IMG/VR virus record: IMGVR_UViG_3300021957_003133
Coordinates: 1 to 64,000 of that record
Direction: 5' to 3' (one strand)
DNA length: 64,000 nt
From: a virus
The notes under the pieces are model-generated. The model had not been told where the DNA came from. It made no database searches and worked only from the letters and a program-made list of their open reading frames with translations. The first letter of the stretch is position 1. Each line of letters starts with the position of its first letter. Below, piece by piece: positions 5,972 through 53,675 of this stretch. Both the position numbers and the translations under genes were made by a program.

Positions 5972-5977
5972 CCAGTC

Positions 5978-6007
5978 AAAAAAAAGCACCCCTAAAGGTG
6001 CTTTTTT
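5978..6007 (-). terminator. Intrinsic terminator after the major capsid gene (bidirectional shape)
   Basis: A8-GCACC-N6-GGTGC-T6. Confidence 0.85.
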
Positions 6008-15340: not shown

Positions 15341-15571
15341 ATGGAAGTATTAAAAAACATTCAGAAATGGAGTTCATCTATAGCTGACGTAGCTGTATCA
15401 CTAATGGCGATGTTTATCGTATTAGAACTACTTGGCGTAGGTAACATACCGTTTTTTCCAGAAGTTAACGTAATTGGTAACGTAACTGGAGTAGTTAAAT
15501 CTTTAGGAGCTGAAGGCTTAGTTGGTTTAATTGCAGTGTGGGTTTTATACACAATTTGGAATAAGAAGTAA
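15341..15571 (+). CDS. Small membrane protein (two hydrophobic helices), host-like
   Basis: 76 aa, AGGAGG RBS, own promoter and terminator. Confidence 0.8.
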   Translation: MEVLKNIQKWSSSIADVAVSLMAMFIVLELLGVGNIPFFPEVNVIGNVTGVVKSLGAEGLVGLIAVWVLYTIWNKK

Positions 15572-15607
15572 GAGAATATCCTTACACCATTTCCACAGAA
15601 TAAGAAG

Positions 15608-15634
15608 AAAGCACCTCAAGGGGTGCTTTTTTTT
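15608..15634 (+). terminator. Intrinsic terminator at the convergence point
   Basis: AAAGCACCT-CAAG-GGGTGCTTT followed by a T run. Confidence 0.85.
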
Positions 15635-15723
15635 GGATTCACGTTCAGTGATAACCTAACAGATAGTCAAGTCATAGTTACTGCTAATAAAACAATTAAT
15701 CCATAGTTCTTTGGGCTTATTAA

Positions 15724-16160
15724 AGATGTCTACGACATCTAACTTCTTCGTTAACACTCGAAGTTCTTTTCTTAAGACTTAATTAATTTACTTTACTTTG
15801 ATATACTGTATGTTCTTACTTGCTTTATCTAGATCTTTCAGCCATACTTCACCTATACAAGGCAAAGTATGAAAGACACTTTATCTGAGTCTTACGCACA
15901 TACTAATTAAAAGAGATTGTTTTCATTAACACGGAGGCGGTCAGCCTGTACCCCCTACTCTAGCTTCATCTGGCGGATGCAATGATAGCCGTAATTAGCC
16001 AACTATCAAAGTCACGTAGGTTGCTTTTTCTCAGAGCCTACATCTTTTGGGGTTTAACCCTTTTGAATGCCATGTGTCGTCCTGTGTGTAGTCCTCTCTA
16101 CACGTTCCACGTGGTTACCCACGATCGCCTCAGGACACAGAATACATCTGCATCATTGAC
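15724..16160 (-). ncRNA. Putative large structured non-coding RNA, family unrecognised
   Basis: Gap with no credible ORF, locally richer in GC, at least 7 helices, a GUAA (GNRA) tetraloop and G-U pairs favouring the minus strand, plus a predicted 8-bp pseudoknot. Boundaries approximate. Confidence 0.65.
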
Positions 16161-16162
16161 TG

Positions 16163-16612
16163 TTATATTTTGTTTAAATCTTCTACGAGAATGTTCTTTA
16201 CGGAACCAATGCCTAGTCTGACATTAATGATCCCATTGTAGTTATCATTTCTAAGTAAAACATGTTCATTGATCTGATAATACACTTCCATGTAGTTAGT
16301 TTCACCACGTGTTTTACACAAATAAAGTATTTCACGTGTGAACTTTTCTGAGCCTAGTTTTTCGATATCTTTTACGAGCCTATCGGATGAGCCATAATAT
16401 TTTTTCCAGTCAGTTTCGACTGTACTTCGTCTTTTATTTTTCTTGCCTTTTAGAGGTGGTCTCTTCTTGATTGTCCAGAAAAATTTACGACCTACGTAGT
16501 CGTGTCCATTCTCTGTGTTTGTGATCCTATATACAAAGCCATAGTTATCACCGATATCCTCAGACTCAAAAGGTTTGTTATTGTAAGTCCAAGGATTATC
16601 GTATGTTGCCAT
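16163..16612 (-). CDS. Stand-alone GIY-YIG family nuclease-like protein
   Basis: 149 aa: GFVYRITN...YVGRK, YYGSS, FTREIL, conserved E (YMEV) and YN. Confidence 0.75.
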   Translation of the reverse strand: MATYDNPWTYNNKPFESEDIGDNYGFVYRITNTENGHDYVGRKFFWTIKKRPPLKGKKNKRRSTVETDWKKYYGSSDRLVKDIEKLGSEKFTREILYLCKTRGETNYMEVYYQINEHVLLRNDNYNGIINVRLGIGSVKNILVEDLNKI

Positions 16613-16789
16613 TTACATTGAGTTCTTTTTGTCTTGAATTTCTGCACGTCTAGCCTTGGTAAGTTTACCTAAGTCACCTAGTGCTTTACGAGCTCTAGCG
16701 GCCGCGGCTTTTACACCCTTACCGTCAAATGTTTGTGATTCTGCTACGTATGTTTCTACTGCCGCTAAAATATCTTCATGAATTGACAT
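16613..16789 (-). CDS. Histone H1-like (Hc1-type) small basic protein
   Basis: Not in the ORF track. 58 aa MSIHEDILAAVETYVAESQTFDGKGVKAAAARARKALGDLGKLTKARRAEIQDKKNSM, AAGGA RBS. KG.KAA..RARK resembles the Hc1 N-terminal domain. Confidence 0.75.
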   Translation of the reverse strand: MSIHEDILAAVETYVAESQTFDGKGVKAAAARARKALGDLGKLTKARRAEIQDKKNSM

Positions 16790-16810
16790 GTTAATTTTCC
16801 TTATTGATTG

Positions 16811-17068: not shown

Positions 17069-18172
17069 TTAGTTGGTTTCGTAACCAACAGCGTAATCGT
17101 GATCAACTATATCGCTACTACATTTGTATTGGCATTCTGTCCAACTAGTATTTTTGTTGTCTAGGTTATTAAAGAATGATTCCCAAATTGGATCATTTAA
17201 TACTTGTTCTAATGTTCTTTCAGTTAGATCTAATCGTGACTGATTTACAGTGAAGAAATCATCTTCAAAACTTATATGTTCAGCATTTGATGTTAGACTA
17301 CTGTAAGGTAATCCTTTCCAACTACAAGGGTATAATATTCCATTGGCATTAACATACATTCCCTGCGTGCCTATCAGACACAACGGAGTTATTGCACGAT
17401 TGTACTTATCCTGAACCTTATTAAAATGTATTTCTTTGGTTTTTATGTAGTCCGAATTGTCTAACTGCCTTGAAGTTATAGGAATCATTATCCTTTCATA
17501 CCTATTAGATGAGCTAACGAACTCTGCTCTGGGCTCTAAAGGATCAGTAGCACCACCATAAGTTTCATCATACTTGCTACCAAATTTAGTACTTTTAGTT
17601 AGCTGTACAGCATCACATCCCCTCTGTTTAGCTTCGTCGACGATGGCGTTGATTTTATCTTGATTGTATTTAAAAATAATAGTAGCCCAATGAACAAAAG
17701 CTGTTGACTCTTTGCTCATTATTTCCATACCTAACATTATGCTGGACCACGAACTGTTAATCCTATATATGTTGTTTGACTCTTCATCAAATCCGTCTAT
17801 GCTAAAATTTACAGTATCTCTGTCATTACTGATACTAGCAAACCGTTTCCACCACGCTTCATCCTTATAACTGCCGTTGGTTATAGTAAACAGATGTATG
17901 TCAGGGTTTGAAGTTTTAATGTATTCAACTATGTCTAGATACTCTTTGTTGTATATAGGATCCCCTAAATCACCACACATAGTAATACGTTTGACGGTGT
18001 TCTTTAACAGTTCGGGTGACAGTATTTTTTGGAACTCTGCTAGTGTTATATCACGGTTTAGTTTTAATTGATCCTTGTATTCTGTTCGAGGACAGCGAGG
18101 GCACTTCAAAGTACATTTGCTAGTGATACCAAAGTGCCAATGGTACAGTTGCCAAGGATATACTAAATTCAT
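17069..18172 (-). CDS. Radical SAM protein with C-terminal twitch/SPASM-like domain
   Basis: CTLKCPRC, GDLGDP, TNGS, FSIDG; C-terminal CLIG...YPCSW...CQYKC. Confidence 0.9.
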   Translation of the reverse strand: MNLVYPWQLYHWHFGITSKCTLKCPRCPRTEYKDQLKLNRDITLAEFQKILSPELLKNTVKRITMCGDLGDPIYNKEYLDIVEYIKTSNPDIHLFTITNGSYKDEAWWKRFASISNDRDTVNFSIDGFDEESNNIYRINSSWSSIMLGMEIMSKESTAFVHWATIIFKYNQDKINAIVDEAKQRGCDAVQLTKSTKFGSKYDETYGGATDPLEPRAEFVSSSNRYERIMIPITSRQLDNSDYIKTKEIHFNKVQDKYNRAITPLCLIGTQGMYVNANGILYPCSWKGLPYSSLTSNAEHISFEDDFFTVNQSRLDLTERTLEQVLNDPIWESFFNNLDNKNTSWTECQYKCSSDIVDHDYAVGYETN

Positions 18173-18798
18173 CGTGTTAAACTTATCTTAGTGATAAGAT
18201 TTTTTTTGTCATGTAGTATTTGATCAAACACAGGGATTAGGTCTTCAGTTTGCATATGAGACATTTGATCGTACAAGTCGTTGACTTTATCTTCCGGTAC
18301 ATTACCTCGATTACGATTAAAGTTTGTTTTAGTTAGTCCAGGATGCATTATTGTAAATCCTATGTTTTTATCTCGTAATTCGTATGATATAGTACTCATA
18401 AATGCGTCTAAACCGTGTTTACTTGTTCCATATACGCCGTATCCAGGATGGTACCCATCAACCACTTGACTACCTAATACAATGACTTTACTCCAAGGTT
18501 TAAACATACGTTGCTGTATATACTTGTGTATTAAAATAATATTGCTAGTAAGATTTACTGTCACAGTGTTGATAAAATCTGCAGATTTCATTGTAACAAA
18601 AGGAGCTCTTCCATTGGTATCTACACCAGCACATAATATTAAGTAGTCATAGGATTTAAAATCTACTGTGCTAATGTCCAAGTTTGCGAGATCTAATTCT
18701 TGTCGTGTTGGAGCAGTAACTTGGTAAGCATTACTTTCTAAGTGTTGTTTGAACTGTTTGCCAATGCCTGAACTACCACCTGTCAAAAATACATTCAT
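18169..18798 (-). CDS. Short-chain dehydrogenase/reductase
   Basis: TGGSSGIG, CAG, catalytic YGTSK, PGLTKT. Confidence 0.92.
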   Translation of the reverse strand: MNVFLTGGSSGIGKQFKQHLESNAYQVTAPTRQELDLANLDISTVDFKSYDYLILCAGVDTNGRAPFVTMKSADFINTVTVNLTSNIILIHKYIQQRMFKPWSKVIVLGSQVVDGYHPGYGVYGTSKHGLDAFMSTISYELRDKNIGFTIMHPGLTKTNFNRNRGNVPEDKVNDLYDQMSHMQTEDLIPVFDQILHDKKNLITKISLTR

Positions 18799-53630: not shown

Positions 53631-53658
53631 AAAAGCACCTTAAGGGGTGCTTTTTTTT
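53631..53658 (+). terminator. Intrinsic terminator ending the fibre operon
   Basis: AAAAGCACCT-TAAG-GGGTGC-T8. Confidence 0.88.
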
Positions 53659-53675
53659 GACTCAAACTAATGGCC

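What the first reader, a model, noticed from the sequence alone, without database searches (positions are those of the whole stretch)
15724..16612. GIY-YIG gene followed directly by a ~440-nt structured RNA: candidate nuclease-RNA system
Seen (minus strand, starting just after the stop at 16163): a junction closed by GUCCUG/CAGGAC (16131-16136 with 16079-16084) holding CGUGG-GUAA-CCACG (16110-16123) and GUGUAG/CUACAC (16086-16103); GUAGG/CCUAC (16016-16041); a 9-bp stem (15983-16008) whose loop GCUAAUUA can pair with UAAUUAGU at 15902-15909 (pseudoknot); a long hairpin (15834-15876) flanked by direct repeats AGAUAAAG (15879-15886, 15823-15830); and two end hairpins (15724-15765). It is the largest non-coding gap in a gene-dense window. 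The 149-aa protein is little more than a catalytic domain with a basic insert (KKRPPLKGKKNKRR) and lacks the DNA-binding tail of Seg/I-TevI homing enzymes. Known: HEARO/omega RNAs partner compact HNH/RuvC nucleases. Inference: a ribonucleoprotein in which RNA supplies specificity, or an unrecognised ribozyme or replication-related RNA. I do not recognise the family.
Basis: partly seen in the sequence, partly recalled or inferred. Interest (0 to 1): 0.85.

Follow-up and report, generated by a model that had tools for sequence, protein, structure and literature searches.

The report
Large twin-box RNA beside phage nuclease
The gene-free stretch behind a small nuclease gene of this uncultured giant T4-like phage encodes a real, doubly knotted non-coding RNA of about 440 bases that is shared by many giant phages; nothing shows that it guides the nuclease, and its job is unknown.

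Summary
In the 190-nt core, 97.5% of cells are paired, 28 of 38 pairs change on both sides, and 0 of 500 shuffles reach this.

The invariant core word occurs in more than 118 IMG/VR viral contigs and in none of about 185,000 prokaryote genomes. The window RNA matches no Rfam family. Only the 5' domain of a deep-branching subclade reaches Polynucleobacter-1 (RF01718).

All 78 full-length copies lie behind a nuclease gene, but not always the same one. Sixty have the SegE-type GIY-YIG and 18 have an unrelated PDDEXK_15 nuclease. The two were mutually exclusive in 9 of 9 contigs tested.

Cultured Rak2-like jumbo phages (Serratia BF, E. coli 121Q, Cronobacter GAP32) carry a distant homologue of the RNA beside endonuclease VII. 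GIY-YIG homologues in cyanophages, Melnitz and phiN3 keep the same basic insert yet lack the RNA.

I therefore read this as a stand-alone phage RNA gene next to the phage's junction-resolvase-type nuclease, not a guide RNA. Its oddest feature is two 13-nt "twin boxes" that always mutate together and have no complement inside the RNA. The scan has found this RNA before on other genomes.

The parts
16163..16612 (-). 149-aa GIY-YIG nuclease gene (catalytic domain only). It is a neighbour of the RNA, probably co-transcribed with it.
   Evidence: Pfam SegE_GIY-YIG, E 4.9e-40, residues 8-124. Single copy in the 115-kb record.
15724..16162 (-). Conserved structured RNA (twin-box RNA), about 440 nt.
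   Evidence: Conserved at 75-99% identity in 12 close contigs. The core word occurs in more than 118 viral contigs. Covariation is shown. Invariant G-U pairs fix the strand.
16137..16151 (-). 5' hairpin (GCAGA / UCUGU) that starts a few bases after the stop codon.
   Evidence: Pairs covary: A-U to G-C, and A-U to U-A.
16078..16137 (-). Three-way junction. The closing helix is 16131-16137 with 16078-16084. It holds hairpins 16110-16123 and 16086-16103.
   Evidence: 7 + 5 pairs with changes on both sides. MI pairs 16101-16088, 16102-16087, 16123-16110.
16050..16060 (-). Small hairpin GGG/CCC.
   Evidence: 3 pairs, 2 covarying.
16016..16041 (-). Hairpin GUAGG/CCUAC with an inner UG/CA pair and a conserved A-rich loop.
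   Evidence: Helices 1-2: all 5 outer pairs change on both sides.
15984..16007 (-). 8-bp stem whose loop (15992-15999) forms pseudoknot 1.
   Evidence: Helix 3: 8 of 8 pairs covary.
15902..15909 (-). 3' strand of pseudoknot 1. It pairs with loop 15992-15999.
   Evidence: Helix 4: 8 pairs, 7 covarying, 99.5% paired.
15912..15961 (-). Invariant core three-way junction. AGAG (15958-15961) pairs with CUCU (15912-15915). GGGGGU (15950-15955) pairs with GCCUCC (15933-15938). There is also a small hairpin at 15919-15930.
   Evidence: Helices 5-9. Pair 15952-15936 is G-C in 54 sequences and A-U in 24. This is the word used for the collection scans.
15970..15974 (-). 5' strand of pseudoknot 2. It pairs with loop 15940-15944.
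   Evidence: Pair 15970-15944 is G-C in 57, U-A in 15 and C-G in 5 sequences. The same pseudoknot is 5 bp and covaries in Rak2-like phages.
15879..15891 (-). Twin box 1: N-A-CUC-RGAUNAWG.
   Evidence: Identical to box 2 at the variable positions in 94-100% of 77 RNAs.
15842..15872 (-). Central 13-bp hairpin between the boxes.
   Evidence: MI pairs 15869-15845 and 15867-15847.
15823..15835 (-). Twin box 2: N-A-UCU-RGAUNAWG.
15741..15765 (-). Penultimate hairpin with a conserved GAGYG..AGCGA-type loop.
   Evidence: Stem sequences differ between clades while the loop is kept. MI pair 15762-15743.
15724..15740 (-). Terminal 7-bp hairpin AGAUGUC/GACAUCU.
   Evidence: Nearly invariant in the GIY clade. 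It covaries in the PDDEXK clade.
15608..15629 (.). Bidirectional intrinsic terminator shared with the convergent plus-strand genes. It is the probable outer limit of the transcript.
   Evidence: Many relatives have a terminator 25-60 nt after the last conserved hairpin.

Best explanation
Shown: 15724-16162 (minus strand) is a gene for a large structured non-coding RNA. Its parts are:
- a 5' hairpin and a three-way junction;
- a compact core with two pseudoknots around an invariant three-way junction;
- a hairpin flanked by two identical 13-nt boxes;
- two terminal hairpins.

It belongs to a family confined to phages. One branch is in uncultured aquatic jumbo T4-like phages. A distant branch is in cultured Rak2-like jumbo phages of enterobacteria.

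Inferred:
- The RNA is the last unit of the gp47-gp46-...-nuclease transcription unit and acts as a stable, stand-alone RNA, not as a guide for the GIY-YIG protein.
- The neighbouring nuclease is the phage's single-copy, structure-specific (gp49-like junction-resolving) endonuclease. Its slot has been filled in different lineages by GIY-YIG, PDDEXK_15 or endonuclease VII. The adjacency therefore reflects conserved gene order in the recombination module.

Most likely mechanism (about 30% confidence for this part): the knotted core is a folding or binding platform. The two single-stranded boxes, presented on either side of the central hairpin, pair with two copies of one complementary nucleic-acid partner. 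That partner is encoded elsewhere by the phage and changes together with the boxes.
For: Structure
- Core covariation: 97.5% of cells paired, 28 of 38 pairs change on both sides, 0 of 500 shuffles reach this, and slid controls fall to 36-53% paired.
- The 5' and 3' domains also covary.
- Strand is fixed by invariant G-U pairs.

Distribution
- More than 118 viral contigs carry the core word; 0 hits in genome contigs.

Independence from the nuclease
- Upstream gene: GIY-YIG in 60 and PDDEXK_15 in 18 of 78 full-length loci.
- At least 2 switches of nuclease type on the RNA tree; the RNA subtype follows the tree.
- The two nuclease families are mutually exclusive and single copy in 9 of 9 contigs.
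- An SGNH-like ORF lies between nuclease and RNA in 11 loci.
- GIY-YIG homologues at 35-54% identity, in 448 cultured phage records and loci L018-L029, lack the RNA but keep the basic insert.

Same slot in Rak2-like phages
- Endonuclease VII is followed by a conserved, largely unannotated gap of about 800 nt in 62 records.
- That gap has the same core topology and compensatory changes in stem f, both pseudoknots and the core helices, plus a twin box (CGUCAG twice or CGUCAA twice).

Twin boxes
- Identical at four variable positions in 94-100% of 77 RNAs.
- No complement within the RNA.

Expression
- Metatranscriptome contigs from three studies cover the core and bridge the stop codon into the RNA.
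Against: - No direct evidence for the RNA's ends, abundance or stability. The runs laid were contigs, and DNA carry-over cannot be excluded.
- No partner for the boxes was found in the 115-kb record, which is only about a third of the genome.
- A nuclease gene lies upstream in 78 of 78 aquatic copies, and next to the RNA in Rak2-like phages. This is a stronger link than gene order alone requires, so a functional tie to junction nucleases is not excluded.
- The resolvase role of the GIY-YIG protein is inferred from position and mutual exclusivity only.
- The homology with the Rak2-like element rests on a weak model score (13.4 bits, E 0.04) plus shared topology in six sequences.
Confidence: 0.6

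Rival explanations
1. Nuclease-RNA ribonucleoprotein. The RNA binds the catalytic-domain-only nuclease, and the twin boxes supply target specificity.
For: - A nuclease gene lies directly upstream in 78 of 78 full-length copies.
- The nuclease has no DNA-binding tail.
- The boxes behave like fast-changing specificity words.
Against: - Three unrelated nuclease folds occupy the slot, and the RNA subtype does not track nuclease type.
- In Rak2-like phages the nuclease is on the other strand.
- GIY-YIG homologues with the same basic insert occur without the RNA.
- An extra gene can be inserted between the two.
- No box-complementary target in 115 kb.
Confidence: 0.08
2. Homing endonuclease parked beside its target. 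The GIY-YIG gene is a free-standing Seg-type selfish gene that sits next to an ultra-conserved RNA gene, as T4 SegB sits by the tRNA genes (this comparison is from my own knowledge of T4).
For: - Best Pfam match is the SegE catalytic domain.
- One relative, L054, carries a full Seg-like protein with a NUMOD3 motif in the same slot.
- Nuclease type switches on the RNA tree.
- The invariant RNA core would be an ideal cleavage target.
Against: - No nuclease-free allele among 78 loci.
- One copy per contig and strict exclusivity with PDDEXK.
- The short form is conserved at 83-88% amino-acid identity in the closest contigs, where DNA identity is about 76-83%.
- The short form is present in 448 cultured phage records, which does not look like a sporadic selfish gene.
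Confidence: 0.12
3. Cis-acting 3' untranslated element that stabilises or regulates the nuclease operon mRNA.
For: - It starts at the stop codon and ends with hairpins and a terminator.
- Metatranscriptome contigs bridge the gene and the RNA.
Against: - About 440 nt with two pseudoknots and invariant junction bases is far more than a 3' stabiliser needs.
- In Rak2-like phages the homologue is not in the 3' region of the nuclease gene.
- It persists behind different genes.
Confidence: 0.08
4. Self-processing ribozyme or ligand-sensing RNA. The knotted invariant core is catalytic or binds a metabolite. This does not exclude the main reading.
For: Invariant unpaired bases are held in a double-pseudoknot junction across very distant phages. 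The RNA must be separated from the mRNA at a conserved 5' sequence.
Against: - No match to any ribozyme or riboswitch model, even at E up to 10.
- No downstream gene to control.
- No exons, so it is not an intron.
Confidence: 0.1

Closest known systems
Polynucleobacter-1 RNA motif (Rfam RF01718; Weinberg et al. 2010, PMC2864571)
   Same: It matches the 5' domain of the deepest-branching members of this RNA family. L035 scores 39.2 bits, above the 37-bit cut-off. L139 scores 32.7 bits. Both matches lie directly upstream of the shared core. It is an orphan motif from fresh water and estuaries.
   Different: It is a 141-nt motif, and only a fragment of the RNA. The window RNA gives no match even at E up to 10. 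The double-pseudoknot core, the twin boxes and the terminal hairpins are not part of it.
GOLLD and ROOL large ornate RNAs (Rfam RF01998, RF03087)
   Same: They are large, multi-domain non-coding RNAs of unknown function, often phage-borne, recognised by covariation.
   Different: No sequence or structure match. This RNA is smaller, lies in a fixed slot of the recombination module and has twin boxes. Oligomer formation is untested.
OMEGA / HEARO guide RNAs of IscB, IsrB and TnpB
   Same: A structured RNA of a few hundred nucleotides is encoded next to a compact nuclease gene.
   Different: The nuclease fold differs. There is no guide segment at an end and no transposon ends. Co-occurrence is not obligatory, and the RNA is shared by three unrelated nuclease families.
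T4 Seg-type free-standing GIY-YIG homing endonucleases (SegE; SegB beside the tRNA genes)
   Same: The catalytic domain is homologous, and the gene lies next to a stable-RNA gene.
   Different: There is no DNA-binding tail (except in L054). The gene is single copy and never absent, which fits a housekeeping nuclease.
T4 gp49 endonuclease VII (junction-resolving and packaging endonuclease)
   Same: Endonuclease VII occupies the equivalent slot between gp46 and the RNA and hub genes in Rak2-like phages.
   Different: It has an unrelated fold. Equivalence of function for the GIY-YIG and PDDEXK proteins is inferred, not tested.

Membership tests
Polynucleobacter-1 RNA (RF01718) | Score at or above the Rfam gathering cut-off (37 bits) | tested here: not met
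   No match on the window at gathering or at E up to 10 on 15400-16800. Met only by relative L035 (39.2 bits). L139 scores 32.7 bits.
Twin-box phage RNA family (defined in this scan, not in Rfam) | Core model R1: three helices plus the invariant junction word | tested here: met
   Window 15866-16056 scores 204.6 bits, E 5e-47. The window was part of the seed, so this holds by construction. Independent support comes from the 54-sequence covariation.
Twin-box phage RNA family (defined in this scan, not in Rfam) | Two pseudoknots and two identical boxes flanking a hairpin | tested here: met
   Pseudoknot 1. Pseudoknot 2. Boxes at 15879-15891 and 15823-15835.
RNA-guided nuclease systems (OMEGA/HEARO type) | Obligatory co-occurrence of one nuclease family with its RNA | tested here: not met
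   The RNA occurs with PDDEXK_15 and, in distant form, beside endonuclease VII. GIY-YIG homologues occur without the RNA.
RNA-guided nuclease systems (OMEGA/HEARO type) | A variable guide segment complementary to a target | tested here: inconclusive
   The boxes are variable, but no complementary site was found in 115 kb. The genome is only about 33% complete.
RNA-guided nuclease systems (OMEGA/HEARO type) | RNA-dependent cleavage | not testable with these tools
   This needs biochemistry.
Seg-type free-standing homing endonuclease | GIY-YIG catalytic domain | tested here: met
   PF19835, E 4.9e-40. GIY, YIG, Arg, Glu and Asn positions are conserved in alignment A6.
Seg-type free-standing homing endonuclease | C-terminal DNA-binding modules (NUMOD, zinc finger, HTH) | tested here: not met
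   The domain covers residues 8-124 of 149. Only relative L054 (355 aa) has NUMOD3.
Seg-type free-standing homing endonuclease | Sporadic presence or absence among close relatives | tested here: not met
   A nuclease gene is present in 78 of 78 full-length loci. One copy per contig.
Group I intron | Match to the intron model, and flanking exons that restore a gene | tested here: not met
   No RF00028 match at E up to 10. The RNA is followed by a terminator and convergent genes. The helix order differs from P3-P7 topology.
Junction-resolving enzyme slot (gp49 analogue) for the GIY-YIG protein | Positional equivalence and mutual exclusivity with known or annotated resolvases | tested here: met
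   The same slot holds PDDEXK_15 (annotated as resolvase in PA5oct relatives) or endonuclease VII. The families were exclusive in 9 of 9 contigs.
Junction-resolving enzyme slot (gp49 analogue) for the GIY-YIG protein | Cleavage of four-way DNA junctions | not testable with these tools
   This needs biochemistry or complementation.

The most novel reading that the evidence does not exclude
The twin boxes are programmable guide words. The RNA holds two copies of one phage-specific DNA or RNA sequence and hands them to the recombination machinery encoded beside it (gp46/gp47 and the junction nuclease). That would be an RNA-directed DNA transaction used by giant phages, working with whichever junction nuclease fills the slot.
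Probability: 0.07. Interest if true: 0.9.

Novelty: new variant of a known kind. Interest (0 to 1): 0.62.

Why it matters
Few large, intricately folded non-coding RNAs are known in bacteria and phages, and most still have no known function. This one has several useful properties:
- It is confined to phages.
- It keeps the same doubly knotted core from uncultured aquatic giant phages to culturable giant phages of E. coli, Cronobacter and Serratia.
- It sits in a fixed place in the recombination gene module.
- It carries two short words that change together without pairing with anything inside the RNA.

That last property is the signature of recognition of an outside partner.

Because homologues exist in phages that grow on laboratory strains, the function can now be tested directly. 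The locus also shows three unrelated nucleases replacing one another in one genomic slot. That suggests the widespread small GIY-YIG proteins of T4-like phages are junction nucleases.

Tried and rejected
- **Rfam.** No match on the window at gathering, or at E up to 10 on the region. This covers group I introns, HEARO, GOLLD, ROOL and the ribozyme models.
- **tRNA and tmRNA.** ARAGORN found none in the window.
- **blastn of the RNA against cultured phages.** No match with the window RNA or with the L047 RNA. One query used wrong coordinates and hit gp46; I ignored it.
- **Model R1 on other phages.** Nothing credible on Melnitz, phiN3, PA5oct, Phosso, SCTP-2 or Atu_ph07.
- **Replication origin.** The GC-skew minimum lies near 24-26 kb, not at the RNA.
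- **Internal partner for the boxes.** No complement between -260 and +160 of box 1 in 77 RNAs, and no Watson-Crick covarying column.
- **Partner elsewhere.** Nothing beyond chance in the window or in the 115-kb record.
- **A cluster of box complements in the GIY-coding codons of nine loci.** This looks like coincidence with the G-F-I-Y codons.
- **Basic insert as an RNA-binding adaptation.** Rejected, because RNA-less homologues keep it.
- **Parts of the RNA without metatranscriptome cover (15666-15909).** No conclusion can be drawn from contigs.
- **Literature.** I found no description of this RNA. The four PA5oct ncRNAs lie elsewhere in that genome.

Full report
**What is there.** The window is part of a 115-kb IMG/VR record of a T4-like phage that CheckV rates as about 33% complete, so the full genome is probably jumbo-sized. 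On the minus strand the gene order is gp47-like, gp46-like, SDR, radical SAM, two small ORFs (one Hc1-like), then a 149-aa GIY-YIG gene at 16163-16612. The ORF-free stretch follows, and then a bidirectional terminator at 15608-15629. The terminator is shared with convergent baseplate-hub genes. This is the largest ORF-free gap in the window.

**Checking the observation.**
- Folding energy alone is only mildly unusual (z = -1.85 on the minus strand, -1.77 on the plus strand), so related sequences decide the matter.
- Twelve viral contigs with a close GIY-YIG gene keep the stretch at 75-99% identity.
- On 54 diverse core sequences, 97.5% of cells form pairs. Twenty-eight of 38 pairs change on both sides, no shuffle out of 500 reaches this, and slid controls drop to 36-53% paired.
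- A second pseudoknot (15970-15974 with 15940-15944) appears in the mutual-information scan. One of its pairs is seen as G-C, U-A and C-G.
- The 5' three-way junction and the 3' hairpins are also supported.
- Invariant G-U pairs would be A-C mismatches on the other strand, so the RNA is read in the same direction as the nuclease gene.

**Is it a known RNA?**
- The window gives no Rfam match at gathering score or at E up to 10, and it holds no tRNA or tmRNA.
The model matches only the 5' domain of the deepest-branching members: L035 at 39.2 bits and L139 at 32.7 bits.
- The known 141-nt orphan motif is therefore a fragment of one divergent branch of a much larger RNA.
- The core word occurs in none of about 185,000 prokaryote genomes, so the RNA belongs to phages.
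- I found no paper that describes it.

**Relation to the nuclease.** All 78 full-length, non-identical copies have a nuclease gene upstream on the same strand. It usually ends within about 15 nt of the first conserved RNA base.
- The gene is the SegE-type GIY-YIG in 60 loci. In the other 18 it is an unrelated 172-aa PDDEXK_15 protein, a family annotated as Holliday-junction resolvase in PA5oct-like phages.
- On the RNA tree the PDDEXK type is basal and the GIY-YIG type derived, with at least two further switches. L054 carries a 355-aa GIY-YIG protein with a NUMOD3 motif inside the PDDEXK clade. L120 carries PDDEXK inside the GIY clade.
- The RNA subtype follows the tree, not the nuclease.
- In 9 of 9 contigs tested, each contig has exactly one of the two nuclease families.
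- In 11 of the 73 GIY-YIG loci found among 101 distinct copies, a further 269-aa SGNH-like ORF lies between nuclease and RNA.
- GIY-YIG homologues at 35-54% identity are common in cultured cyanophages, Melnitz and phiN3 (448 records).

**Cultured relatives.** By gp46, the nearest cultured phages are PA5oct, Phosso, Atu_ph07 and the Rak2-like jumbo phages.
- In Serratia phage BF the slot after gp46 holds endonuclease VII on the opposite strand, followed by an unannotated 800-nt gap before the hub gene.
- That gap is conserved in 62 phage records, including E. coli 121Q and PBECO4, Cronobacter GAP32, Pectobacterium CBB, Salmonella Munch and Xanthomonas XaC1.
- Model R1 gives only a weak local match there (13.4 bits, E 0.04).
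- The six-phage alignment nevertheless shows the same order of elements with compensatory changes:
  - the stem-f loop GAUUGUAU pairs with AUACAAU (GUUCAUGU with ACAUGAA in XaC1);
  - the core helix is CGUGA/UCACG or UGCGA/UCGCA;
  - the next helix is GAGAG/CUUUC or GGAAG/CUUCC;
  - pseudoknot 2 is GUUGC/GCAAC or GUUAC/GUAAC;
  - a short word is present twice, CGUCAG in three phages and CGUCAA in the other three.
- I take this as distant homology.
- I could not reproduce that note's claim for an Agrobacterium phage, nor find the RNA in PA5oct, Phosso or SCTP-2.

**The twin boxes.** The direct repeats flanking the central hairpin are 13 nt long. Box 1 is N-A-CUC-RGAUNAWG and box 2 is N-A-UCU-RGAUNAWG.
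- Across 77 RNAs the four variable positions are the same in both boxes in 94%, 100%, 100% and 97% of cases. All four bases are used at the first position.
- This is identity, not complementarity.
- No column of the RNA covaries with the boxes in Watson-Crick fashion.
- No complement lies inside the RNA.
- No complementary site beyond chance lies in the 115-kb record.
- The simplest reading is that both boxes recognise the same outside nucleic acid, which must change with them. An alternative is a switch in which a nearby segment pairs with either flank. The segment after box 1 can do this in some members but not in all.
- This feature remains unexplained.

**Expression.** Six metatranscriptome runs hold part of the stretch. 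Contigs from three studies cover 15929-16048 and bridge the stop codon into the 5' domain (16032-16278 and 16073-16299). Contigs of related family members cover the invariant core. Contigs cannot show ends, strand or level, and DNA carry-over is possible, so this is weak support for co-transcription.

**Conclusion.** The RNA is real and its main body is uncatalogued. The RNA keeps its subtype while the nuclease is swapped among unrelated folds, and the nuclease family thrives without the RNA. The best reading is a stand-alone phage RNA in a conserved slot of the recombination module, next to the phage's junction-type nuclease. Its function is unknown, and the twin boxes are the best lead. This scan has met the same RNA on several other genomes.

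Noticed in passing
window 16613-16789 (-): A 58-aa ORF directly upstream of the GIY-YIG gene matches the chlamydial histone H1-like protein family Hc1 (E 1.3e-9). This is an unusual DNA-compacting protein for a phage.
   Followed up: no
window 15600-15635, 53632-53659 and 5977-6007: The A-run plus GC hairpin of the bidirectional terminator recurs at 90-96% identity at two other places in the record. This points to a reused terminator cassette.
   Followed up: no
L155 7640-8442 and homologues in Rak2-like phages: The conserved gap sequence hits 4-5 places per genome in most of the 62 records. Parts of it (promoter, terminator or RNA modules) are therefore repeated elsewhere in these genomes.
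   Followed up: no
L084 12839-12908 (+): A near-threshold match to the freshwater-2 RNA motif (RF02980; 47.1 bits against a cut-off of 49.9) lies in a related phage contig.
   Followed up: no
L015 3456-4265 (+), and 10 other loci: A 269-aa ORF with a GDSL/SGNH-like N-terminal motif and no Pfam match is inserted between the nuclease gene and the RNA. It overlaps the nuclease stop codon.
   Followed up: partly
L037, L038, L058 and similar loci, about 646 nt upstream of box 1: In nine loci the codons for the G-F-I-Y catalytic motif of the GIY-YIG gene are exactly complementary to the box word AGAUAAAG. This is probably coincidence, and the window itself lacks it.
   Followed up: partly
window 17069-18172 (-) and 18169-18798 (-): A radical SAM/SPASM enzyme and a short-chain dehydrogenase lie inside the gp47-gp46-nuclease gene run.
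   Followed up: no
PA5oct NC_071039.1 about 75.7-77.8 kb (L151 1951-3465): The equivalent slot between the resolvase and the hub gene holds only tiny annotated ORFs and gaps. Model R1 finds nothing there. The four RNA-seq-defined ncRNAs of this phage lie elsewhere, one of them 451 nt long.
   Followed up: partly
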